From IMG/VR virus record IMGVR_UViG_2563366768_000033: a stretch of 25,942 nt of DNA; one strand, 5' to 3'. This DNA comes from a virus. Lineage: Duplodnaviria; Heunggongvirae; Uroviricota; Caudoviricetes. The notes below the pieces were generated by a model, which searched no databases, was not told the origin of the DNA, and was given only the letters and a program-made list of their open reading frames with translations. Both the position numbers and the translations under genes were made by a program. How positions within the stretch are numbered: position 1 is the stretch's first letter; each line of letters begins with the position of its first letter. This document shows positions 6,016 through 17,893 of the stretch, piece after piece.

Positions 6016-6725
6016 TGGCGAAAAATGACTTTAAAGCGTTTGCAACTGATCGAAATGCCAATGTTATGTCGCAGGAGGAATGGGAAGCGTTGCCTGCGCT
6101 TATATCCGGATTTACAGCAGGGAAAGCATCCAGTGCGCAAGTCAATAAGGTTATTCGGCAGGCCAGCTTTATTGCTGCAGCTCTGGCCCAGTTTGTAAGT
6201 GATAAAACGCAACGGGATGTGCTTGATAATGGTGATCTGCCCGGTTTTGTTGAATTGCTGGGATCGGGGTTTGCTGTTGAATACCTGAGCCGCAAGAATC
6301 CGTTTGGCGATATCAAATCGGACGGCACGGTGAAAACGGCTCTTCAAAACCTTGGTTTGGGAGAAGCGGCAAAACGGGATGTGGGGACAGGGGAAAATCA
6401 GATACCGGACATGGCCTCTTTTGCCAGTGGTAATGGATGGATGAAATTACCCAACGGGAAAATCCTGCAATATGGTCGTGGTGCGGTTACGCCGACATTA
6501 TCGACGCAAACAATGAGAATTACATTCAGCATCCCTTTCCCCAAAAAAGCGGACTGCGCCATGCTTACTCATTCTGGTGATGGCGGTGCGCCTTTAGGCG
6601 CTGGGCGAGGGTTCGTGATGACTGCAGAAGGCCCAACGTTAACCGGCTTTAATTCTGCTTACAGAACGTCATCAACCAGCGACACGGTATCGATGAATTA
6701 CAGTTGGTGGGCTGTTGGTGAGTAA
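6015..6725 (+). CDS. side tail fibre protein, variable C-terminal segment (StfP-like); alternative start 5997
   Basis: Product [61 protein letters not shown]... is characteristic of e14/Mu/P1-type tail fibre variable regions; followed by a tail-fibre assembly gene and an inverted second set. Confidence 0.7.
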
Positions 6726-6736
6726 TTTTATTCAGG

Positions 6737-7189
6737 GTGATTTATATGGACGAATATGTTTATAGCGCAAGGCATAATGCTTTTTTCCCTGTGGATATGA
6801 TTGATAAATATAAATCAGAGGGATGGGATTTATCAGACGCTAAGGAAGTAAATCAAAATATTATCAGTGAGTTTATGGCTGAACCGCCACAAGGAAAAAT
6901 CCGTATTGCCGGAGATGATGGGCTGCCTGCGTGGGCAGATATTCCTCCACCCACGCATGAAGAGCTTATTGAAATTACTGAATCAGAAAGACAGCTACTA
7001 ATTAACCAGGCCAACGAATACATGAACAGTAAGCAATGGCCCGGTAAAGCGGCTATTGGTCGTCTGAAAGGTGACGAACTGACGCAATATAATTTGTGGC
7101 TGGATTATCTGGACGCACTGGAGCTGGTCGATACTTCCGGTGCGCCAGATATTGAATGGCCTACGCCTCCGGCAGTTCAGGCCAGATGA
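6737..7189 (+). CDS. tail fibre assembly protein (Tfa)
   Basis: 150-aa ORF directly after stf; C-terminus ...LTQYNLWLDYLDALELVDTSGAPDIEWPTPP is the conserved Tfa tail, mirrored by the convergent paralogue at 7161-7754. Confidence 0.8.
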   Translation: MIYMDEYVYSARHNAFFPVDMIDKYKSEGWDLSDAKEVNQNIISEFMAEPPQGKIRIAGDDGLPAWADIPPPTHEELIEITESERQLLINQANEYMNSKQWPGKAAIGRLKGDELTQYNLWLDYLDALELVDTSGAPDIEWPTPPAVQAR

Positions 7190-7754
7190 CATCCGGCGCG
7201 GTGCTGGTATCTGTTGCCGTCACCGCGTCAATGTAATCCAGCACGGCGTTAAGTCGGGTTGTTTCTGCCTGAGTCAGTTTCCGTCCGGCCTGTAACTTCA
7301 GCTGAATCAGACTAATGGAAGCCATTGCTGCATCAATCAGTGATTGGCGCTGTGCTTCTGCCGCGTCTACTGCGGCACTGTGTTGTGCCTCAGTGTCTGT
7401 CACCCATTTCTCACCATCCCATTTATCGTATGGCGTTAACGGTGAAATCGTGACATAACCGTCTTTGATGGCACCGATATAATCCACTGTAACAGCTGCG
7501 CCATTTTCGATTGAGTAAACAGTCTCATTGCGATGGTCTTCTTCATGGCTCCATCCCTTACCTGTAAATACTGCCACTCTTCCCGGAATGTTTTCGCCAG
7601 GGTCAATACCAGTGGAACAGGCGGGCATACTTACGCCAGTATTAATATATTCATCAGACCAGCCCGTATACTCAGATGTTTCAGCATCATAATAAAAACA
7701 ACGCATATCGCCCGGCACTGTAGCCAGCCCATTTTCATCAAAAACAGGTTTCAT
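7161..7754 (-). CDS. tail fibre assembly protein, alternative copy (TfaE-like) in inverted orientation
   Basis: 197-aa ORF MKPVFDENGLATVPGDMRCFYYDAETSEYTGW... ending ...LNAVLDYIDAVTATDTSTAPDVIWPELPEA; convergent and overlapping with the plus-strand tfa, as in G/P invertible segments. Confidence 0.8.
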   Translation of the reverse strand: MKPVFDENGLATVPGDMRCFYYDAETSEYTGWSDEYINTGVSMPACSTGIDPGENIPGRVAVFTGKGWSHEEDHRNETVYSIENGAAVTVDYIGAIKDGYVTISPLTPYDKWDGEKWVTDTEAQHSAAVDAAEAQRQSLIDAAMASISLIQLKLQAGRKLTQAETTRLNAVLDYIDAVTATDTSTAPDVIWPELPEA

Positions 7755-8251
7755 TATTTAGCCCTCACCAGAAAGTTAAATGCAATATTTCGCGGTCTGA
7801 CTGCAACAAAATTCACACCATCACCCACAGAGTTACTGGTGAAATTAAATCGTGAAAATCCTGGCTGATTTCCGGCGATGCCATCATGAAAGTTAATTGC
7901 GTGTCCCGCACCTTCGCCTATATTCCCGGCAAACTGAGAAAAGTTTGTAGCTGCCTGCCAGCTTAATAATTCGCGACCACCGTCTGCACCTCGCCCGTCA
8001 TCCCAGATACGAATGAAATCACCGCGGGCTTCAGGTAATACCAGCGAAGGAAACACTTTCGCCAGCACAGGATAATCAGTGGCAGAGAATTTCGCGCCGT
8101 TGAACTTCAAAAACACCATACAGGACCAGCTGTCGATTACAGTATTTGGCATTGCAGCGGACGGCCAGAAGAACGGAACGCCAATAGCTGGAGCACCTTC
8201 TCCCAAACCAACGTTTATGAAAATGCAGAAATAACGAGCAAATGGCATCAT
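7754..8251 (-). CDS. alternative tail fibre C-terminal segment (StfE-like), currently in the off orientation
   Basis: 165-aa minus-strand ORF abutting the pin upstream region with no constant tail-fibre N-terminal part attached; position equivalent to stfE of e14. Confidence 0.65.
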   Translation of the reverse strand: MMPFARYFCIFINVGLGEGAPAIGVPFFWPSAAMPNTVIDSWSCMVFLKFNGAKFSATDYPVLAKVFPSLVLPEARGDFIRIWDDGRGADGGRELLSWQAATNFSQFAGNIGEGAGHAINFHDGIAGNQPGFSRFNFTSNSVGDGVNFVAVRPRNIAFNFLVRAK

Positions 8252-8277
8252 TCCTGCTTTTGTCAGGGAGATCTACC

Positions 8278-8832
8278 ATGCTTATTGGCTATGTACGTGT
8301 GTCAACAAATGACCAGAACACAGATCTACAACGTAATGCGCTGAACTGTGCAGGATGCGAGCTGATTTTTGAAGACAAGATAAGCGGTACAAAGTCCGAA
8401 AGGCCGGGACTGAAAAAACTGCTCAGGACATTATCGGCAGGTGACACTCTGGTTGTCTGGAAACTGGATCGGCTGGGGCGCAGTATGCGGCATCTGGTCA
8501 TTCTGGTTGAGGAGTTGCGCGAACGTGGCGTTAATTTTCGCAGCCTGACGGATGCTATTGATACCAGTACCCCAATGGGGCGCTTTTTCTTTCATGTGAT
8601 GGGGGCCCTGGCTGAAATGGAACGAGAACTGATTGTTGAACGAACAAAAGCTGGACTGGAAGCTGCTCGCGCACAGGGACGAATTGGTGGACGTCGTCCC
8701 AAACTTACACCAGAACAATGGGCGCAGGCCGGACGATTAATTGCAGCAGGAATTCCTCGCCAGAAGGTAGCGATCATCTATGATGTTGGTGTATCGACAC
8801 TGTATAAGAAGTTTCCGGCCGGAGATAAATGA
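8278..8832 (+). CDS. pin: serine DNA invertase (Pin/Gin/Hin family), 184 aa
   Basis: From ATG at 8278: MLIGYVRVSTNDQNTDLQRNALNCAGCELIFEDKISGTKSERPGLKKLLRTLSAGDTLVVWKLDRLGRSMRHLV... with catalytic Ser in VRVSTNDQ and C-terminal HTH; placed directly after the inverted stf/tfa pair. Confidence 0.9.
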   Translation: MLIGYVRVSTNDQNTDLQRNALNCAGCELIFEDKISGTKSERPGLKKLLRTLSAGDTLVVWKLDRLGRSMRHLVILVEELRERGVNFRSLTDAIDTSTPMGRFFFHVMGALAEMERELIVERTKAGLEAARAQGRIGGRRPKLTPEQWAQAGRLIAAGIPRQKVAIIYDVGVSTLYKKFPAGDK

Positions 8833-9904: not shown

Positions 9905-10486
9905 CTTTATCAATGACTTATCTCCCGACTTCCCGTCTTGCTTTTCCTAAACAGAACAATCGTAGAATATTCTTGAAGGGTTAGATCGTCACTGTTTTCT
10001 GTTCGATACTGTGACATTCAGCACTTGATTCGCTATGGATCTGACAGGAAGGTTTTGAGCGAAAATCTGCAGTTATTCAGTCGTTTTCTTATCGGTCACC
10101 ATTATTCTTTTAGACATTGATCCTACAAAGCTGCCGCAAAGTTGGTGGTGGGAACTGAAGTTGCGTAGAGAAGGGGTCAATACCCGGAGGCAAACATGGG
10201 CTGGCAAAAGTGTAGCGGTATTAGGCGCAGCTATTTAGCCTAGTTATGTTTTATGAAAACTTGATATCATATAAGTGTCTTACTTATTGGCTGTAAATAA
10301 GTTTTTCCTAAGGAATTGTTTCTTGAGTATCATTTGTAACTGTAACGGAATTTATAATCCTTTGCTTTATTGTTACGGTATTTTTTATCACACCCTATTT
10401 TTAGTGGTTTTTTATACTGAAGTTTGGCAAAGTGAACTTTATATACATATACTTCATCCTGGTTTCAGTTAAATTGGGGGGATGAT

Positions 10487-11230
10487 ATGGCAACTACATG
10501 TTCAGTTATATTGATTTTGGAGTCCTTTGATGTTTATTTCGGAAAAGAGAGTGTGTTTCTGGAGAGAGGTTCATCTGTACTTGTCGACTCTAGCTCTAGA
10601 GATTTTTTCCTGACATATCCTGAAAGAGTGATAGTGGCGGATTTTGGCGCTGAGTTTATTAGTCGCTATTTGAAAGCTAATAACTTAAGGGATATTTCTG
10701 ATTGTAGGGAATATCCATCTTATTTAAAAATAAACTTTGCTGACTTCAGTTTAATTAAAGGATTAATTAGTTGGGCTAATCACTGTGCTGAATACATAGA
10801 AATTTTTGATGAGTCTATTGCTTTTACATGTCTCTCTGCATTTTCTTCTGAAAAACAATTTGGAGTATTTCTGTTTGGATGTTTGAAAAGCACAGGGGCT
10901 AAAGTTAAAACGATTATTCATACGGATTTATCTGCACCATGGCGTCTTAAGGATATATCATCAAGATTATATCTCAGCGAAAGTTTACTAAAGAGGAAAT
11001 TGAAAGAAGAGGGGGTATCATTCAGTAAGATCATACTTGATGAGAGGATGCAAATGGCTGAATATTTACTCAGCACTCGTTGTTATCCTATTAGTAAAGT
11101 AGCTAAGGTCTGTGGTTATGCCAGTGTCTCATACTTTACTTATGTATTTAGACGTTATTTTGGTGTTTCTCCAAGTCAATACTCTCAGAGGAGTTCAGAA
11201 AGTAAAATTCTTACTCACCAGGGAATCTGA
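10487..11230 (+). CDS. AraC/XylS-family transcriptional regulator (AppY/Rns-like)
   Basis: 247-aa product with C-terminal dual HTH (WRLKDISSRLYLSESLLKRKLKEEGVSFSKIILDERMQMAEYLL...KVAKVCGYASVSYFTYVFRRYFGVSPSQY); AT-rich gene and upstream region; GGGGG Shine-Dalgarno before the ATG. Confidence 0.75.
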   Translation: MATTCSVILILESFDVYFGKESVFLERGSSVLVDSSSRDFFLTYPERVIVADFGAEFISRYLKANNLRDISDCREYPSYLKINFADFSLIKGLISWANHCAEYIEIFDESIAFTCLSAFSSEKQFGVFLFGCLKSTGAKVKTIIHTDLSAPWRLKDISSRLYLSESLLKRKLKEEGVSFSKIILDERMQMAEYLLSTRCYPISKVAKVCGYASVSYFTYVFRRYFGVSPSQYSQRSSESKILTHQGI

Positions 11231-11271
11231 TCATTGTTCTTGCCCCCTTATTTCCAGACAGGGGGGGTATC

Positions 11272-11720
11272 TTAAGTTAACGTTACCCGCTGACGTCGAT
11301 ATTCTCGCGGAGAGCGATAACCCAACGCACTGTGCGGATGGTTTTCATTGTAATGTTCGATCGCCACTGCAAGATTATGCAATGCCGTTCTTACATTCGG
11401 TTTCGGCATGAACGCGATGTAGTCTTCCTTCATCGTTTTCACGAACCTTTCTGCAATTCCATTACTCTGAGGACTGCTGATTGCCGTTGTGCAGGGCTCC
11501 AGATTCAACTCTCTGGCGAACTGCCGTGTTTCATGCGCTCTATACGCTGAACCGTTATCTGTCAGCCACTGGATGGACTGTTCCGGTACTTTATCGCCAA
11601 AGCGTTTTTCTATCGCTCCTAACATGACATCCTGCACTGTCGCTTTATCGTAACCTCCCGTGCTTGCGGCCCAGTCTATGGCTTCACGATCGCAACAGTC
11701 CAGGGCGATTCATCTGGGCC
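11272..11720 (-). mobile_element. IS2-family (IS3 group) transposase orfB, 3' fragment only
   Basis: Minus-strand translation ...[72 protein letters not shown]...[14 protein letters not shown] parallels the C-terminal integrase-core region of IS2 InsD as recalled; no orfA, no 5' half and no terminal inverted repeats seen. Confidence 0.7.
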
Positions 11721-11984
11721 AATCCTTGCTCATAACAGGCATTCACTTCAGTCATGGCAGAAAGGTATGCATGCTGGAGAAGTCGTGAAAGAAAAGAAGA
11801 CTGCTGCGCCGTTTGTCGTCACGTTTATCTTCATTGGCTATGCAAGTCGTAATACAAGGTGGGACAAAACTGAGACACATAAGGCCTCGCAATGGCTTGC
11901 AAGGCTTTACATGTTTTGATGTGGTGGGACGTGTGAGCGCAGTGTTGATGGGGTAATGCTTTGAATTAGAAGCGGATTCTTATA

Positions 11985-12030
11985 ATTCGTAATGCGAAGG
12001 TCGTAGGTTCGACTCCTATTATCGGCACCA
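11985..12030 (+). other. direct repeat of the thrW 3' end (46 nt); junction between the two stacked elements
   Basis: ATTCGTAATGCGAAGGTCGTAGGTTCGACTCCTATTATCGGCACCA is identical to thrW 1399-1444; followed 160 bp later by a P4-type integrase gene. Confidence 0.85.
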
Positions 12031-12192
12031 TCTCAACTTCCTCAAACGTCCGTATTAGTCCATAAAATCTCTGATTTATAACATTTTTTATTCTTTTAAG
12101 TCCATAGTAGTCCGTAACCATCCAGTAGAATCCGGTACTGAATGTGTATAGGATTGTGTATATGTTCCTGTTCGGTCTGGATTCCTATACAC

Positions 12193-13374
12193 ATGCCTTT
12201 AAACGATATGCAGATTCGCCGCGCTAAGCCTGAAGCTAAAGCCTATACATTTGGAGATGGGCTAGGGTTGTCATTACTTATAGAACCTAATGGAAGCAAG
12301 AGTTGGCGGTTCCGCTATCGCTATGCCGGCAAACCCAAAATGATCTCGCTTGGTGTTTACCCAACGATCACCCTTGCCGATGCTCGTTCCCGTCGTGATG
12401 AAGCTCGAAAACTTGTGGCAGAAGGAAAGAACCCTAGTGAGGTTCGAAAAGAGCAAAAGCTAGCTATGCAAACAGAGTCAGAGAACGCCTTCGAAAAGAT
12501 AGCCAGAGAGTGGCATCAACTTAAATCTGCTAAATGGTCGGCGGGATATGCATCAGACATCATGGAAGCGTTTAAGAACGACATTTTTCCTTATGTCGGA
12601 ACAAGGCCTGTGGGAGAGATTAAACCGCTAGAGCTGCTGAACGTTCTGCGTAAAATTGAGAAACGTGGTGCGTTGGAGAAAATGCGCAAAGTGCGGCAGC
12701 GTTGCTCCGAAGTGTTTCGCTACGCAATTGCAACGGGTAGGGCGGAGTACAATCCTGCGGCTGATCTCTCCAGCGCTCTCGAAGTACACCAATCCAATCA
12801 TTTCCCATTCCTAAAAGCTGATGAGATACCTGATTTTCTACGTGCCTTAGAGGGTTACTCCGGGAGTAAGCTTGTCCAGATAGCCACGAAATTACTGATG
12901 ATTACGGGTGTGAGAACCATCGAATTACGCGCGGCATTATGGCAAGAATTTGATCTGGATAACGCTATTTGGGAAATTCCTGCTGAAAGGATGAAAATGC
13001 GTAGGCCACATCTTGTGCCCTTATCATCTCAAGCGGTAGATTTACTCAATGAACTCAAGATCATGACAGGGAACTATCGTTATGTTTTTCCAGGGCGGAA
13101 CGATCCGAATAGGCCAATGAGCGAAGCGAGTATAAATCAAGCCATTAAGCGTATTGGGTATGGAGGAAAAGTCACTGGACATGGTTTTCGTCATACCCTT
13201 TCTACAATCCTGCATGAGCAAGGTTTTGAGAGTGCTTGGATTGAAATCCAGTTGGCTCATGTAGATAAAAATTCTATTAGGGGGACTTATAACCATGCTC
13301 AATATTTTAGTGGAAGGAAGTCTATGATGGACTGGTACAGTAATTTGATATTTGAAAGACTAAAAAGGAGTTAA
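12193..13374 (+). CDS. P4-family tyrosine integrase
   Basis: From ATG at 12193: MPLNDMQIRRAKPEAKAYTFGDGLGLSLLIEPNGSKSWRFRYRYAGKPKMISLGVYP... (P4/CP4-57-type N-terminus) with C-terminal catalytic region HGFRHTLSTILHEQG...RGTYNH; the ORF track's upstream extension is not used. Confidence 0.9.
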   Translation: MPLNDMQIRRAKPEAKAYTFGDGLGLSLLIEPNGSKSWRFRYRYAGKPKMISLGVYPTITLADARSRRDEARKLVAEGKNPSEVRKEQKLAMQTESENAFEKIAREWHQLKSAKWSAGYASDIMEAFKNDIFPYVGTRPVGEIKPLELLNVLRKIEKRGALEKMRKVRQRCSEVFRYAIATGRAEYNPAADLSSALEVHQSNHFPFLKADEIPDFLRALEGYSGSKLVQIATKLLMITGVRTIELRAALWQEFDLDNAIWEIPAERMKMRRPHLVPLSSQAVDLLNELKIMTGNYRYVFPGRNDPNRPMSEASINQAIKRIGYGGKVTGHGFRHTLSTILHEQGFESAWIEIQLAHVDKNSIRGTYNHAQYFSGRKSMMDWYSNLIFERLKRS

Positions 13375-13377
13375 TTT

Positions 13378-13794
13378 GTGTCTCAACCACTTTCGGAAAT
13401 ATTGACATGGGATGATGAACAATGGGAGGTATTTGTCCATGATTGGCTTATTGTCTGTAAATCAGATGATTACCCGTGGAGCGAACGTTTGGGAGGAGCT
13501 GGAGATAAAGGTAGAGACGTTGTTGGATATAAATCGGATCCTAACGTAGAAGGTTATTCTTGGGATAATTATCAATGCAAACTGTACAAAAAAAGTTTAG
13601 GGTTCTCTGATGTTGTAGTTGAGTTTGGAAAACTTATCTATTTTACTCTGAATGGTGATTATCCCATCCCTCAGAAGTACTTTTTTGTGGCACCCTATGA
13701 TTTATCTACTACATTTTCTAATTTATTGAAAAATAAAAACGAGCTTAAAAAAGCAGTCCTTGATTCATGGGATTCAGCAATTTCAAAAAAATAA
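13378..13794 (+). CDS. cargo gene 1, N-terminal part: Mrr-like PD-(D/E)xK nuclease domain (frame broken at A7 tract 13785-13791)
   Basis: GTG start 7 nt after AAGGAG (13365-13370) and 4 nt after the int stop; product contains GGAGDKGRDVVGY...(17 aa)...YQCKLY, the GxGDxGxD / QxK pattern of Mrr-type nuclease cores. Very AT-rich. Confidence 0.6.
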   Translation: MSQPLSEILTWDDEQWEVFVHDWLIVCKSDDYPWSERLGGAGDKGRDVVGYKSDPNVEGYSWDNYQCKLYKKSLGFSDVVVEFGKLIYFTLNGDYPIPQKYFFVAPYDLSTTFSNLLKNKNELKKAVLDSWDSAISKK

Positions 13795-14384
13795 CTAAAA
13801 AGATTGATATTCCATTAGATGATGAAATAAAAAAATATATTGAGGATTTTGATTTTAGTATTTTTTACTCTCTACCCTTATCATTGATTTTAAATGATAT
13901 TGCAAATACACACCTTTATTTTAAGTACTTTAACGAGCTGTATGTCGTGAGAATCCCTCCAAATGAAATTCCAACATACAATTCAAAAAAAGAGTCTGTA
14001 TATGTTAATGCACTGCTTCAAGCCTATTCAGAGCATGGAAATAAAACTTATAGTTCTTTCTTAGAGCTTGATGATCCATACAGACGACACTTTAATAATA
14101 GTAGAAATGATTTTTATTTTGCATCTTCGCTTGAGGTTTTTGTCCGCGAAGTATTTAAAGATGATGTATTCAAAGCATTGAAATGTTACATTTCATCTTC
14201 AATTGAACCCGTCTTTTATGAAGACCATAATTATGCATTTATTAGGTGTAATGCAGTCTTGAAGCAGGCTGTTCTGACACCAATTGCACATTCAGTACTA
14301 TCAAAAATATGTGAAGCAAATGATAAAAAAGGAATATGCCATCATTTGGTTAATGATGGTGAAGTAATTTGGACGGTGAGATAA
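13767..14384 (+). CDS. cargo gene 1, C-terminal part (unknown domain); probably the continuation of 13378-13794
   Basis: This frame is open from 13764 and overlaps the previous ORF's end across an A7 run; one extra A would join them into a single ORF of about 336 codons. Stop TAA at 14382-14384 overlaps the next ATG. Confidence 0.55.
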   Translation: MGFSNFKKITKKIDIPLDDEIKKYIEDFDFSIFYSLPLSLILNDIANTHLYFKYFNELYVVRIPPNEIPTYNSKKESVYVNALLQAYSEHGNKTYSSFLELDDPYRRHFNNSRNDFYFASSLEVFVREVFKDDVFKALKCYISSSIEPVFYEDHNYAFIRCNAVLKQAVLTPIAHSVLSKICEANDKKGICHHLVNDGEVIWTVR

Positions 14385-14842
14385 TGGTTAGAATTTATAA
14401 TTCAAGTTTAGAAGTGGCATGTCGAATGGCGAAAGTGCTCGTCGCTATTTATCCTTCTTCATTAAGCCTTGAACGGCTTATTTGTTTTGATTTTATTTTA
14501 GTAAATCTTAAGGATTTTTTACCTGAAGAGATTAGTCTTCATCCTCCAATACCCCGTAGAGATGCTCAGTTAGCCCTAAAACGAGAGATTGTTTTAGAAT
14601 CATTGGCTTTGTTGCAAGGCTATGAACTAGCCTCAAAAATTTATACACATCGTGGTTTTGTATATAAAGCTTCTGAAAAAACATATGCATTTACAAATTC
14701 TCTACATAATGAATATGTTGCGCAGATGGAGCATAATATAAATTTGGTGGTTAAGTTATATAGTGATATTCCTGATGAGCAGTTGCAATCAATTATAAAA
14801 AATAAAATTGGCAAATATGATATGGAATTTAATTATGAATGA
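14384..14842 (+). CDS. cargo gene 2: small protein (152 aa), predicted mostly helical; candidate middle component
   Basis: ATG at 14384 overlaps the upstream stop (TAATG); product MVRIYNSSLEVACRMAKVLVAIYPSSLSLERLICFDF...; its stop overlaps the next gene's ATG (ATGAATGA). Confidence 0.6.
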   Translation: MVRIYNSSLEVACRMAKVLVAIYPSSLSLERLICFDFILVNLKDFLPEEISLHPPIPRRDAQLALKREIVLESLALLQGYELASKIYTHRGFVYKASEKTYAFTNSLHNEYVAQMEHNINLVVKLYSDIPDEQLQSIIKNKIGKYDMEFNYE

Positions 14843-15467
14843 CAATTTTTTTACGTTCAGAAAAATAAAGGTAACCGGATTCAATAAATTAGATGCTATA
14901 ATTGAATTTGGTTCTAAATTGACTATTTTATATGGTGGTTCTGACTCTGGAAAAACATACATATATTATTTGATTCGATATTTATTAGGGAGTGAAAAAC
15001 TAAAAAATAAAGATATCGATCATGCTCAAGGTTATGATTTAGCCTATCTGGAATTTAATTTTCAAGGTAGGGTAATGACAATTGAGAGGTCTCTTCAGGA
15101 TAGCGCCCATTACAGATTATATGATTCGAGCATTGAAAATGTTAGTGAAGCTAATCTGTTGATGGTTTTTTCCAAAAGTGCTTCGTCTAAAAAGAGTTTT
15201 TCATCATACTTTTATGGTAGGTTGAATTTCAAAGAGGCTAAAGTAAGAACAAACTTAAGTAATACTCTTCATAAATTTAATCTTAATAATGTTTTTGAAT
15301 TTTTTTGTATTGATGAATTAAGAGTGTTAACTGAGAAGTCGTTAATTCTTTCTGATATTCCTAGCGAGGAGACAAAAAGAAAGTCTGAATTTAAATTCCT
15401 TTTAACTCAGAGAGATGATACTAACTCCTTAGCAGAAAAACCAAATAAAAAAGCAAGATATTTTTAA
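14835..15467 (+). CDS. cargo gene 3, N-terminal head of an SMC/Rad50-like ABC ATPase (Walker A); ends at an in-frame TAA
   Basis: MNDNFFTFRKIKVTGFNKLDAIIEFGSKLTILYGGSDSGKTYIYYLIRYLLG: classic SMC/RecF-type N-terminus with Walker A GGSDSGKT. The ORF stops at TAA 15465-15467 inside a T5A7 tract while the same frame stays open downstream. Confidence 0.7.
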   Translation: MNDNFFTFRKIKVTGFNKLDAIIEFGSKLTILYGGSDSGKTYIYYLIRYLLGSEKLKNKDIDHAQGYDLAYLEFNFQGRVMTIERSLQDSAHYRLYDSSIENVSEANLLMVFSKSASSKKSFSSYFYGRLNFKEAKVRTNLSNTLHKFNLNNVFEFFCIDELRVLTEKSLILSDIPSEETKRKSEFKFLLTQRDDTNSLAEKPNKKARYF

Positions 15468-16088
15468 AAAAATCAAATTGCAAATATTTATGAGGAATTG
15501 AAAGCGCAATTAATTTATCCTGAATATGATCAAGTCATTGTTTCAAGAGAACTTGAGAAAGTAGAGCAAGATATTGAATCATCGAAAGATATATTGAAAG
15601 GTATTGTTGATGCACTTGATGATAAGAAGCAATTATTAAAAGAGTTAAGTGATGAATTATATTCAATCAGTGACAGGGAAAAATACTTATCATTACTCAT
15701 TGAAAGATTTAGTCTTCTTAAAGACCAATACTTTATAGATCTACAAAGAATAGATGTTGTATCACAGGCGAATTTCTATTTAAATAATTTTGCAGATATT
15801 TATTGTGAGTTCTGTAATACACCGCAAAAAAAAGAAAATGAAATATCATATGATGATTGTTTTTTGTCGTGTAATGCAGAAAAATTGAAAATCAAAAGCC
15901 AGCTGAAAGGATTAATTGAATCAATCGGATCTAATGTTCGCGAACATGAATTAATTATGTTAAGAAAAAATGATGTTAATGAAATTTATCAATCAGAAAA
16001 AAGTGATTTTAAGACGTTAGAAGATAAAAATATAAAACAATACATTCATCTCTTGAATCACTTTATGAATATAAAGACAATCTTTTAA
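15468..16088 (+). CDS. cargo gene 3 continued: coiled-coil segment with CxxC...CxxxC zinc-hook-like motif
   Basis: Same frame as 14835-15467, open right after the TAA, with no ATG for about 150 codons (the ORF track uses TTG at 15498). Heptad-like charged/leucine-rich sequence and YCEFCN...(14 aa)...CFLSCN (15804-15872). Confidence 0.55.
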   Translation, partial: KNQIANIYEELKAQLIYPEYDQVIVSRELEKVEQDIESSKDILKGIVDALDDKKQLLKELSDELYSISDREKYLSLLIERFSLLKDQYFIDLQRIDVVSQANFYLNNFADIYCEFCNTPQKKENEISYDDCFLSCNAEKLKIKSQLKGLIESIGSNVREHELIMLRKNDVNEIYQSEKSDFKTLEDKNIKQYIHLLNHFMNIKTIF

Positions 16089-16654
16089 TGGATCACACAA
16101 AACATAGCATTCTATCTTCATTACAAGATAAAGAAGATGATGTTGACGAACTTAAATACTCCGCCGAGGACTTTGACTCCTTAACAGTAGCTGATTTGTA
16201 TGATATAGAAATAGCGATGCAAGACTTTTTGAATGATATAAATTTTGAAAATTCTAAAGATAACAAAGTGCGATTTGACGAAGATACATATGACTTTAAT
16301 ATCAATGGGAAACGCCGAGGAATGTTTGGTAAAGGTACCCGTGCAGTAATGCATGCTATATTTACCATTTGCTTTGCGGAATTTTTATCAAGAAAAGGGA
16401 ATCCATTCATTGGATTTGTTGTGCTTGATAGTCCATTAGTGACGCACTTTGATAAAGATAGAGGGGGTTCTCTATCGGATGTTAATAGCGTCAGTCTCAG
16501 TGATTCATTTTATCACGCATTAATCAAAAGGGACTATAATTTCCAGATTGTAATTCTTGAGAATAAAGGTCCGACGTTCCAAATAAAAATTAATGATGCA
16601 AATAAAATCCATAACTTAAATAAGAATGGAAGCTCTGGTTTTTATCCTGTTTAA
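16088..16654 (+). CDS. cargo gene 3, C-terminal ABC head segment (Walker B-like FIGFVVLDSP), separate ORF or frame-shifted continuation
   Basis: ATG overlaps the upstream stop (TAATG); product contains ...GKGTRAVMHAIFTICFAEFLSRKGNPFIGFVVLDSPLVTHFD, i.e. a run of hydrophobics ending in D as in Walker B, with Ser where the catalytic Glu normally sits. Confidence 0.55.
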   Translation: MDHTKHSILSSLQDKEDDVDELKYSAEDFDSLTVADLYDIEIAMQDFLNDINFENSKDNKVRFDEDTYDFNINGKRRGMFGKGTRAVMHAIFTICFAEFLSRKGNPFIGFVVLDSPLVTHFDKDRGGSLSDVNSVSLSDSFYHALIKRDYNFQIVILENKGPTFQIKINDANKIHNLNKNGSSGFYPV

Positions 16655-17063: not shown

Positions 17064-17336
17064 TCAGACAGGAATTTGCTGACGGCTTGACAGCTTTGAC
17101 GCGGAGCCATAGCGATTGAGAGTTTGCTGTTGTTTTTCCGGCATTTGTGCTTTCTCTGATTCCTGTTCATTGCGCCGGGGCTTCATGATTATCGTATCCA
17201 CACTTTCCAGTGCGGTAAATGTGTAGGAACATTCAAGATTCTGGCACTGATACCATGAGCGTTTAACCGATGGTGCTTCATAGGCGGAGGTTCTGGCGTG
17301 TGCCGTCGTACCGCATTCGGGACATTTAAGTGCCAT
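17064..17336 (-). CDS. Ogr/Delta-family zinc-finger late-gene activator (90 aa)
   Basis: MALKCPECGTTAHARTSAYEAPSVKRSWYQCQNLECSYTFTALESV: CxxC...CxxxxC arrangement and sequence typical of P2 Ogr / P4 Delta. Confidence 0.85.
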   Translation of the reverse strand: MALKCPECGTTAHARTSAYEAPSVKRSWYQCQNLECSYTFTALESVDTIIMKPRRNEQESEKAQMPEKQQQTLNRYGSASKLSSRQQIPV

Positions 17337-17341
17337 TAATA

Positions 17342-17893
17342 TTACTCCTGCATGCCGTTAATGTAATCCAGACGTTGCTGAAAGCGCAGTTGTTGTGCAG
17401 GGGTGTAAGAGCTCTGGCAATCACGAACCATCATGGGGTCAGGCATCACACCGGATTCATCCAGAATCATACGATAATCCCCGGCAATTTCAGGCGGTGT
17501 TATTGCCAGCTGGCGAACCAGAGCATTGCGTAATATACGGGACGCAACGTCAACCCCTCCGCGCCCCTTCAGGAACGGAGCCAGTGCAGATGTCAGGGCT
17601 GCTCCATTCGCCTGCATAAAATTGCTGAGAGCGTCTTCTGTGCAGGCCTCCATCAGTTGATGCTGCGAGTAAATGCATTCGCGCGCAGCACAGTTAATTT
17701 GCCATTTCAGCACATCCAGATGTTCCCGCTGTAATTCGAGCTGTCGAGCATAATCTGCTGGTTTTTCCATGGCAGTGAGGAGTGATTCTATCTGTTGTTC
17801 AACGGCTTTTCGGCTCTCACTATGTCCAGCCCACAGAATACGGGCATTTCTAAAACTGATAAGCGCTTGGTCTGGAGTGACTCGGGCCATCAT
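17342..17893 (-). CDS. Psu-like protein (P4 polarity suppression / capsid decoration family)
   Basis: 183-aa product with ...DVLKWQINCAARECIYSQHQ...NFMQANGAALTSALAPFL, resembling recalled P4 Psu (...VRKWQVNQAAGRYI...DFMQQHGTALAAALAP...); start overlaps the upstream gene's stop (ATGA). Confidence 0.7.
   Translation of the reverse strand: MMARVTPDQALISFRNARILWAGHSESRKAVEQQIESLLTAMEKPADYARQLELQREHLDVLKWQINCAARECIYSQHQLMEACTEDALSNFMQANGAALTSALAPFLKGRGGVDVASRILRNALVRQLAITPPEIAGDYRMILDESGVMPDPMMVRDCQSSYTPAQQLRFQQRLDYINGMQE

What the first reader, a model, noticed from the sequence alone, without database searches (positions are those of the whole stretch)
13764..13794. Effector gene reading frame is split at an A7 homopolymer
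Between 13764 and 13791 two frames are simultaneously open. The upstream frame ends ...DSWDSAISKK-stop and the downstream one begins in the same bases. An A8 instead of A7 at 13785-13791 would read ...SKKITKKIDIPLDDE... and fuse the Mrr-like domain to the downstream domain in one ORF of about 336 codons. This is either a sequencing or assembly error at a homopolymer, a genuine inactivating mutation, or a slippage-prone contingency site switching a potentially toxic nuclease on and off.
Basis: seen in the sequence. Interest (0 to 1): 0.55.

Follow-up and report, generated by a model that had tools for sequence, protein, structure and literature searches.

The report
Frameshifted Lamassu nuclease gene, O157:H7
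The two overlapping reading frames are the halves of one anti-phage nuclease gene (lmuA of a Lamassu system carried by the P4-like prophage Sp2 of E. coli O157:H7) that lost one A from an A8 run; the loss is real and fixed in the lineage, and the partner ATPase gene is also broken, so this is an ordinary dead defence system rather than an on/off switch.

Summary
A7 lies at 13785-13791. ORF-A (13378-13794, 138 aa) ends SKK-stop. ORF-B (13767-14384, 205 aa) is open in the -1 frame. One extra A gives a 335-aa protein.

That protein is LmuA of a Lamassu/ABC-3C system. It has an Mrr-like PD-(D/E)xK nuclease domain and CTD6, and is followed by LmuC (MC2) and LmuB. The system sits in the integrase-to-psu defence hotspot of a P4-like satellite, prophage Sp2 of O157:H7 Sakai.

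- **Orthologues:** all are single ORFs of about 335 codons. The closest intact relatives have an interrupted tract (TCC AAT AAA ATA; TCA AAG AAA ATA).
- **Not a sequencing error:** the exact fragments occur in more than 14,000 assembly blocks, and none of 308 complete E. coli carrier genomes has the A8 length.
- **The intact allele exists:** the predicted A8 protein is found on 434 contigs. Their species was not checked directly. Partial proteins reading through the junction are labelled Salmonella.
- **No working switch here:** lmuB in the window carries a TAA nonsense codon (15465-15467) and its own frameshift (A5 at 16026-16030). Related strains add further lesions. 13 of 15 SNPs are non-synonymous.

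Verdict: a genuine, fixed inactivating frameshift in a decaying defence operon. Interest is low.

The parts
12142..13374 (+). P4-type tyrosine integrase (intS, ECs_0289 in Sakai). It marks the left border of the satellite's defence hotspot.
   Evidence: Pfam Arm-DNA-bind_3, Phage_int_M and Phage_integrase; Sakai annotation.
13365..13370 (+). AAGGAG Shine-Dalgarno sequence, 7 nt upstream of the GTG start of lmuA.
   Evidence: Read directly from the sequence.
13378..13794 (+). lmuA 5' fragment (ORF-A, 138 aa, ECs_0290). It holds the complete Mrr-like PD-(D/E)xK nuclease domain and ends at a TAA created by the frameshift.
   Evidence: PADLOC LmuA PDLC03852 positions 10-140, E 9e-41. Family-invariant D43, D47, Q66-C67-K68, E82 and K85. 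Fold matches to LmuA structures and restriction endonucleases.
13785..13791 (+). A7 tract, the site of the 1-bp deletion. The intact allele has A8 (TCA AAA AAA ATA).
13767..14384 (+). lmuA 3' fragment (ORF-B, 205 aa, ECs_0291), encoding the linker and the CTD6 domain. True lmuA coding begins at the tract. The ATG at 13767 has no Shine-Dalgarno.
   Evidence: Pfam CTD6 PF20282 2e-29. PADLOC LmuA positions 141-333. Upstream sequence.
14384..14842 (+). lmuC (ABC-3C middle component 2, 152 aa, ECs_0292). The ORF is intact.
   Evidence: Pfam MC2 PF20288 6e-30. PADLOC LmuC 3e-36.
14835..16654 (+). lmuB pseudogene (SMC/Rad50-like ABC ATPase, ECs_0293). It is split into three ORFs of 210, 196 and 188 aa. 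Intact relatives are 604-609 aa.
   Evidence: tblastn against Xenorhabdus, Serratia and metagenome LmuB. PADLOC LmuB 2e-117 for the intact Salmonella-type allele. RefSeq marks it as a pseudogene.
15465..15467 (+). TAA nonsense codon in lmuB. It is TTA (Leu) in L003, L013 and L015, so the change is T>A at 15466.
16026..16030 (+). A5 tract in lmuB. It is A6 in the intact Salmonella-type allele (L003), so this is a 1-bp deletion that shifts the frame. It is present in every complete E. coli operon compared.
17064..18642 (-). P4 delta, psu and sid genes. They mark the right border of the hotspot.
   Evidence: Pfam Ogr_Delta and Psu in identical loci. Sakai annotation.

Best explanation
The window is the thrW region of E. 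coli O157:H7 (Sakai type). The P4-like satellite prophage Sp2 carries a three-gene Lamassu (ABC-3C) anti-phage system, lmuA-lmuC-lmuB, between its integrase and its delta/psu/sid genes.

LmuA is normally one 335-aa protein. An N-terminal Mrr-like PD-(D/E)xK nuclease domain is joined by a short linker to the CTD6 domain.

In the Escherichia/Salmonella branch of this element, substitutions (AAG or AAT to AAA) made codons 136-139 read TCA AAA AAA ATA, an A8 run. One A was then lost by slippage.

The loss truncates LmuA exactly at the linker. It leaves a free nuclease domain (ORF-A) and an untranslatable or poorly translated CTD6 (ORF-B). The system can no longer be assembled or triggered.

With selection gone, lmuB then accumulated a frameshift, nonsense codons and further homopolymer indels in the O55:H7/O157:H7 lineage.

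**Shown here**
- The identity of the genes.
- The position and nature of the lesion.
- Its fixation in the lineage.
- The existence of the intact A8 allele.
- The additional lmuB lesions.
- The relaxed-selection mutation spectrum.

**Inferred, not shown**
- That the lmuA frameshift came first.
- That the free nuclease domain is inactive. This is by analogy with Cap4-type LmuA, which is sequestered as a monomer by LmuBC and must oligomerise to cut (PMC12663957).
For: **Gene identity**
- Pfam CTD6 and MC2 hits.
- PADLOC LmuA 8e-89 end-to-end for the repaired protein, plus LmuC and LmuB.
- AF2 model of the 68%-identical orthologue, pLDDT 94.6. Residues 138/139 fall in the coil at 136-148, between helix 120-135 and the CTD.

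**Single ORF is the norm**
- 117 of the 120 listed homologues are 324-381 aa; the other three are shorter, and one of them is the E. coli fragment cluster.
- Intact 334/335 + 152-159 + 604-609 aa operons occur in Xenorhabdus, Serratia, a metagenome, Proteus and Pantoea. Several sit in the same thrW P4-like context.
- The repaired E. coli gene aligns gap-free over 1008 nt with P. mirabilis, at 92% nucleotide identity.

**Real and fixed**
- The exact 138-aa and 205-aa fragments are in 14,201 and 14,499 assembly blocks.
- All 20 E. coli-type loci fetched have A7.
- 309 of 309 records from complete E. coli genomes differ from the A8 query.

**The intact allele exists**
- The exact A8 protein is on 434 contigs.
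- Partial Salmonella proteins read through the junction as SKKITKK.

**Decay of the operon**
- The window's lmuB has a TAA at 15465-67 and the A6-to-A5 frameshift.
- Other strains add an A8-to-A7 change at 15826, T7 changing to T6 or T8 at 15300, a deleted A at 15997, and nonsense codons at 15474 and 15549.
- 13 of 15 SNPs are non-synonymous.
Against: - The order of events, lmuA first and lmuB later, rests on one Salmonella-type locus (L003). It has A7 with an intact 606-codon lmuB. Its A7 could be an independent event.
- I could not fetch the 434 A8 contigs, so their species and lmuB status are inferred from protein names only.
- A perfect A_AAA_AAA -1 slippery heptamer sits in the right frame, immediately before the 0-frame stop. 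A trace of full-length LmuA may therefore still be made.
- The SNP sample is small (15).
Confidence: 0.86

Rival explanations
1. The A7 is a sequencing or assembly error at a homopolymer, and the real genome has A8.
For: Homopolymers are classic error sites. One IMG/VR contig (L032) does show A8.
Against: - The same A7 is found in 20 of 20 independently assembled E. coli-type loci.
- None of 308 complete carrier genomes has the A8 length.
- The fragments occur in more than 14,000 assembly blocks.
- L032 carries more than 20 other homopolymer indels in the same 2.3 kb. It is a low-quality record and its lmuA is not restored.
Confidence: 0.01
2. The tract is a contingency (phase-variation) site that reversibly switches a potentially autotoxic nuclease system ON (A8) and OFF (A7).
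For: - Tract lengths A6 (15 contigs), A7 (more than 14,000 blocks), A8 (434 contigs) and A9 (1 contig, S. Brandenburg) all exist.
- A Salmonella-type locus has A7 with lmuC and lmuB still intact.
- The break lies exactly at the domain linker.
Against: - In E. coli the OFF length is invariant across 308 complete genomes.
- lmuB is independently dead, so ON would be non-functional.
- The tract is absent from the nearest intact relatives: Proteus TCC AAT AAA ATA and Pantoea TCA AAG AAA ATA. It is therefore a recent accident rather than a conserved device.
- From my own knowledge, not tested here: A8 is short for a high-rate switch in a mismatch-repair-proficient enterobacterium.
- Other homopolymers in the same operon vary just as much, as expected from neutral slippage.
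Confidence: 0.05
3. The split is decoded by programmed -1 ribosomal frameshifting or transcriptional slippage at A_AAA_AAA-UAA. This would yield functional full-length LmuA together with a free nuclease domain.
For: - The heptamer is in the correct 0-frame phase, and a -1 shift gives exactly the A8 protein.
- A 0-frame stop follows immediately.
- A_AA.A_AA.A is listed among motifs that frameshift at more than 0.10% without stimulators in E. coli, and it is common in IS elements (PMC4066793).
Against: - The 89 nt downstream fold less stably than shuffled controls (-5.9 kcal/mol, z +1.46).
- There is no strong upstream SD-like element.
- Without stimulators, motifs give at most about ten times a 0.055% background (PMC4066793).
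- Orthologues are unsplit and lack the heptamer.
- lmuB is broken anyway.
Confidence: 0.04
4. The two ORFs are a functional split gene, in which the nuclease domain and CTD6 work as separate subunits.
For: The break is at the inter-domain linker. ORF-A keeps a strong Shine-Dalgarno and all catalytic residues.
Against: - ORF-B has no Shine-Dalgarno before its ATG.
- 117 of the 120 listed homologues are single chains of 324-381 aa; the other three are shorter fragments.
- lmuB is a pseudogene.
- In the Cap4-type Lamassu, LmuBC sequesters monomeric LmuA (PMC12663957). I infer that the link between effector domain and CTD matters for this, and it is lost here.
Confidence: 0.03

Closest known systems
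Lamassu (ABC-3C) anti-phage systems, short type with an Mrr-family LmuA effector (DefenseFinder/PADLOC LmuA-LmuC-LmuB; Krishnan/Aravind ABC-3C CTD6 + MC2)
   Same: - Gene order lmuA-lmuC-lmuB.
- The repaired protein matches the PADLOC LmuA model end to end. LmuC matches its model, and the intact Salmonella-type LmuB (L003) matches the LmuB model end to end.
- Pfam CTD6 and MC2.
- Fold match to solved LmuA structures.
- Location in a P4-satellite defence hotspot.
   Different: Here lmuA is frameshifted and lmuB carries a nonsense codon plus a frameshift. This copy is a relic, not a working system.
Vibrio cholerae DdmABC / Lamassu-Cap4 (mechanistic model, PMC12663957)
   Same: The same architecture: an SMC-like LmuB sensor, a small LmuC, and LmuA built as effector domain plus CTD. 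In the model, LmuBC sequesters monomeric LmuA. DNA ends trigger its release and oligomerisation.
   Different: The effector domain is Mrr-like rather than Cap4. Sequence identity to the solved LmuA is only about 9-13%. No function was tested here.
Simple-sequence contingency loci (homopolymer phase variation, for example in Neisseria, Haemophilus and Campylobacter)
   Same: An intragenic homopolymer whose length decides whether the ORF is open. Several lengths occur in nature.
   Different: The tract is short and not conserved. It is fixed in the OFF state in 308 of 308 complete E. coli genomes. The ON state could not restore function in this lineage.
IS-element and dnaX-type -1 programmed frameshift sites (A_AAA_AAG / A_AAA_AAA)
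   Same: A slippery heptamer in the correct phase, with a -1 ORF overlapping it.
   Different: There is no stimulatory structure or SD. The arrangement is not conserved in orthologues.

Membership tests
Lamassu / ABC-3C system | LmuA: an N-terminal effector domain fused to a Lamassu/ABC-3C C-terminal domain in one polypeptide. | tested here: not met
   Both halves are present and homologous (PADLOC 8e-89 for the repaired protein; CTD6 2e-29). In the window they lie in two frames, separated by a stop.
Lamassu / ABC-3C system | LmuC / middle component encoded next to LmuA. | tested here: met
   Pfam MC2 6e-30. PADLOC LmuC 3e-36. Intact 152-aa ORF at 14384-14842.
Lamassu / ABC-3C system | LmuB: an intact SMC/Rad50-like ABC ATPase of about 600 aa. 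| tested here: not met
   Homology is clear (tblastn; PADLOC LmuB 2e-117 for the intact allele). The window copy has a TAA at 15465-67 and a frameshift at 16026-30. RefSeq marks it as a pseudogene.
Lamassu / ABC-3C system | Confers defence against phages or plasmids. | not testable with these tools
   This needs plaque and plasmid-stability assays.
Mrr-like PD-(D/E)xK nuclease domain | Restriction-endonuclease fold with a D...(E/Q)xK catalytic motif. | tested here: met
- Invariant D43, D47, Q66-C67-K68, E82 and K85 in 40 homologues.
Mrr-like PD-(D/E)xK nuclease domain | Match to Pfam Mrr_cat (PF04471) above threshold. | tested here: inconclusive
   ORF-A scores E 0.2 and 12.2 bits against a cutoff of 21. 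Three homologues carry precomputed PF04471 hits.
Phase-variable contingency locus | ON and OFF tract lengths both occur among closely related isolates. | tested here: not met
   None of 308 complete E. coli carrier genomes has A8. 20 of 20 loci have A7. A8 occurs on 434 contigs of unchecked species; partial read-through proteins are labelled Salmonella.
Phase-variable contingency locus | The ON length restores a functional product or system. | tested here: not met
   A8 restores LmuA, but lmuB remains broken at two sites in the window.
Phase-variable contingency locus | Within-culture length heterogeneity at a high rate. | not testable with these tools
   This needs raw reads or amplicon sequencing.
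Programmed -1 ribosomal frameshift | X_XXY_YYZ heptamer in the 0-frame, with a -1 ORF continuing the protein. | tested here: met
   (TC)A_AAA_AAA followed by TAA. A -1 shift gives the exact A8 protein.
Programmed -1 ribosomal frameshift | A stimulatory element (downstream hairpin or pseudoknot, or an upstream SD). | tested here: not met
   The downstream 89 nt give MFE -5.9 kcal/mol. 187 of 200 shuffles fold at least as well.
Programmed -1 ribosomal frameshift | The frameshift arrangement is conserved among orthologues. | tested here: not met
   Orthologues are single ORFs. The closest relatives lack the heptamer.

The most novel reading that the evidence does not exclude
In the intact Salmonella/Escherichia version of this P4-satellite Lamassu, the newly arisen A8 tract in lmuA would act as a reversible ON/OFF switch. 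Slippage to A7 or A9 and back would be supplemented by low-level -1 frameshifting at A_AAA_AAA. Hosts could then silence an autotoxic or plasmid- and prophage-excluding system and later revive it. On this reading O157:H7 is a lineage locked OFF, which may have eased its acquisition of prophages and pO157.
Probability: 0.07. Interest if true: 0.55.

Novelty: already known. Interest (0 to 1): 0.22.

Why it matters
**Annotation.** The main value is as a correction.
- ECs_0290 and ECs_0291, and their equivalents in hundreds of RefSeq O157:H7 genomes, are listed as two separate proteins ('hypothetical protein' and 'ABC-three component system protein'). They are two halves of one frameshifted lmuA.
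- The whole Sp2 Lamassu operon is a relic, and defence-system inventories should not count it as active.

**A counter-example.** A 2026 survey concluded that defence pseudogenes are rare in P4-like satellites because systems are swapped before they decay (PMC13586616). Here a decayed Lamassu has stayed fixed through the O55:H7/O157:H7 radiation.

**An open question.** Whether losing a DNA-end-sensing or plasmid-targeting system helped this prophage- and plasmid-rich lineage is an open, testable idea. Nothing here shows it.

Tried and rejected
- **NCBIfam:** no hits for any Lamassu ORF.
- **PDB profile search with the LmuA alignment:** only chance hits. Fold search was needed instead.
- **Structure prediction:** I modelled the 68%-identical Xenorhabdus orthologue instead.
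- **The search for related loci on genome contigs:** returned only one distant Clostridia MAG, which was of no use.
- **Direct look-up of the A8 protein P0123:** The species and lmuB state of its 434 contigs remain inferred.
- **The one A8 DNA record found (L032, IMG/VR):** rejected as evidence of reversion. It has more than 20 other homopolymer indels in the operon and its lmuA is still broken.
- **Apparent split lmuA calls in Proteus L038 and Pantoea L041:** these proved to be gene-caller start-site artefacts. The DNA encodes intact 335-codon ORFs.
- **Literature searches** for the locus tags, and for Lamassu with O157, found nothing specific.

Full report
**1. The observation**

- Bases 13785-13791 are A7, flanked by C and T.
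- ORF-A runs 13378-13794 (138 aa). It starts at a GTG 7 nt after an AAGGAG and ends ...DSWDSAISKK-TAA.
- The -1 frame is open from 13764. It has an ATG at 13767 and runs to 14384 (ORF-B, 205 aa).
- Inserting one A yields a 335-aa ORF reading ...SKKITKKIDIPLDDE....

A7 runs are common in this AT-rich stretch: seven runs of 7 or more A or T lie within 13378-16654. The tract alone is therefore not significant. What is significant is that homology to a single protein continues across the frame change.
- The Xenorhabdus orthologue aligns residues 3-138 in one frame up to 13791, and residues 138-335 in the other frame from 13788, without a gap.

**2. What the gene is**

- The repaired protein carries Pfam CTD6 of ABC-3C systems (2e-29).
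- The next ORF (14384-14842) is ABC-3C middle component 2.
- The three ORFs after that (14808/14835-15467, 15498-16088, 16088-16654) carry AAA_23/SMC_N and DUF3732 signatures.
- PADLOC identifies LmuA, LmuC and LmuB. The LmuA profile (336 positions) is covered at 10-333 by the repaired protein, 10-140 by ORF-A and 141-333 by ORF-B.
- An AlphaFold model of the 68%-identical orthologue has pLDDT 94.6. It shows an alpha/beta domain up to helix 120-135, a coil at 136-148, then a helical C-terminal domain. The break at residue 138/139 therefore lies in the inter-domain linker.
- D43, D47, Q66-C67-K68, E82 and K85 are invariant in 40 homologues.
- The 'Mrr-like' label is therefore supported at the fold and motif level. 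Pfam Mrr_cat itself scores only E 0.2.

**3. Where it sits**

- The operon is 100% identical to E. coli O157:H7 Sakai. There it lies in 'prophage Sp2, P4-like phage', between intS (ECs_0289) and the delta/psu/sid genes.
- ORF-A is ECs_0290, ORF-B is ECs_0291 and lmuC is ECs_0292. ECs_0293 (lmuB) is already flagged as a pseudogene.
- This interval corresponds to the main defence hotspot described for P4-like satellites (PMC13586616).

**4. Orthologues**

- Of the 120 homologues listed, 117 are single proteins of 324-381 aa. The three shorter ones include the E. coli fragment cluster.
- Intact operons of 334/335 + 152-159 + 604-609 aa occur in Xenorhabdus, Serratia marcescens (same proA-thrW P4-like context), a metagenome, Proteus mirabilis and Pantoea alhagi (same context).
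- The P. mirabilis gene is 92% identical in DNA to the A8-repaired E. coli gene. Both are 1008 nt long and align without a gap.
- At the tract, the relatives read as follows:
  - Proteus: TCC AAT AAA ATA
  - Pantoea: TCA AAG AAA ATA
  - Xenorhabdus: GCT AGT AAA ATA
- The A8 run is thus a recent product of substitutions in the Escherichia/Salmonella branch. It is not a conserved feature.

**5. Error, mutation or switch?**

- The exact 138-aa and 205-aa fragments are indexed in 14,201 and 14,499 blocks of public assemblies.
- All 20 fetched loci have A7.
- An 81-nt A8 query matched 309 records from 308 complete E. coli genomes, every one at 98.8%. That is one difference from A8 in each, and none matched at 100%.
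- Sequencing error is excluded.

The exact A8 protein does exist, on 434 contigs.
- Partial proteins labelled Salmonella enterica read straight through the junction (...SKKITKKIDI...).
- The intact 606-aa LmuB is on 292 contigs and is named as a Salmonella protein.
- The other tract lengths are rare: A6 on 15 contigs, A9 on 1 contig, and in-frame A5 on none.
- A8 is about 29 times more frequent than A6. Most A8 contigs are therefore likely to be a true intact lineage rather than slippage noise. I could not fetch these contigs to check.
- One IMG/VR contig with A8 (L032) has more than 20 other homopolymer indels and was discounted.

**6. The rest of the operon is dead too**

Against intact LmuB, the window copy has two lesions:
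- a TAA at 15465-15467, which is TTA (Leu) in L003, L013 and L015;
- a frameshift in the A5 run at 16026-16030, which is A6 in L003.

Other strains add further damage:
- A8 to A7 at 15826;
- T7 to T6 or T8 at 15300;
- a deleted A at 15997;
- nonsense codons at 15474 and 15549.

Among 15 SNPs separating the haplotypes, 13 are non-synonymous and 3 of those involve stop codons. This is a neutral-like spectrum.

L003 has a proA only 79.6% identical to the window's, so it is Salmonella-like.
- It has A7 together with intact lmuC and an intact 606-codon lmuB.
- This is consistent with the lmuA frameshift being the first hit.
- It could equally be an independent event.

**7. Recoding**

- The site is a perfect A_AAA_AAA heptamer in phase, followed by the 0-frame stop. 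A -1 shift would make exactly the A8 protein.
- The 89 nt downstream fold worse than shuffled sequence.
- Orthologues lack the arrangement.
- Published E. coli data give at most a few tenths of a percent frameshifting for motifs without stimulators (PMC4066793).
- A trace of full-length LmuA is possible. Programmed recoding is not supported.

**8. Mechanism and verdict**

- In working Lamassu systems of the Cap4 type, LmuBC sequesters monomeric LmuA. DNA ends trigger its release and oligomerisation into an active nuclease (PMC12663957).
- I infer that separating the nuclease domain from CTD6 disconnects the effector from its sensor and from oligomerisation.
- The split is a genuine, lineage-fixed, inactivating 1-bp deletion in a homopolymer, in a defence operon that has since decayed further.
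- It is ordinary. Its value lies in correcting annotation, and as a counter-example to the reported rarity of defence pseudogenes in P4 satellites (PMC13586616).

Noticed in passing
window 6343-8221 (invertase gene about 8277-8831): A 1.88-kb tail-fibre segment of prophage Sp1 is inverted in some O157:H7 genomes (L002, L037) relative to the window, at 99.8% identity. It is bounded by inverted repeats of about 24 bp containing TTGGTTTGGGAGAAG, and it lies next to a Resolvase/HTH_7 (Gin/Pin-type) invertase. This is a real DNA-inversion switch in the same window.
   Followed up: partly
window 15826-15833, 15300-15306, 15997, 15474, 15549: Additional strain-specific lesions in lmuB among O157:H7/O55:H7 genomes: A8 to A7, T7 to T6 or T8, a deleted A, and two further nonsense codons. 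They show ongoing decay and could serve as lineage markers.
   Followed up: yes
L003 (GCA_020716925.1, Salmonella-like) 10001-13278 and 13652-15985: This locus has A7 in lmuA but an intact 606-codon lmuB. The satellite there has lost the delta/psu/sid-alpA-ash block, because the primase gene follows lmuB directly.
   Followed up: partly
L038 7113-7550; L041 3945-4550: Source gene calls for intact lmuA in Proteus mirabilis and Pantoea alhagi give only 145-aa and 201-aa products. The GTG start was apparently missed, because the DNA encodes full 335-codon ORFs. Intact LmuA of this family may be systematically under-called.
   Followed up: yes
window 11272-11637 (-): An rve_3 transposase fragment (about 117 aa) lies between the AraC-family regulator (10487-11230) and the Sp2 integrase. 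It is present in some related genomes and absent from others.
   Followed up: no
cluster members P0003, P0124, P0125, P0127: Many draft-assembly contigs end within or just beside the AT-rich 13700-13800 region. This produces dozens of 'partial' LmuA fragments. It probably reflects low coverage or assembly breaks and was not examined.
   Followed up: no
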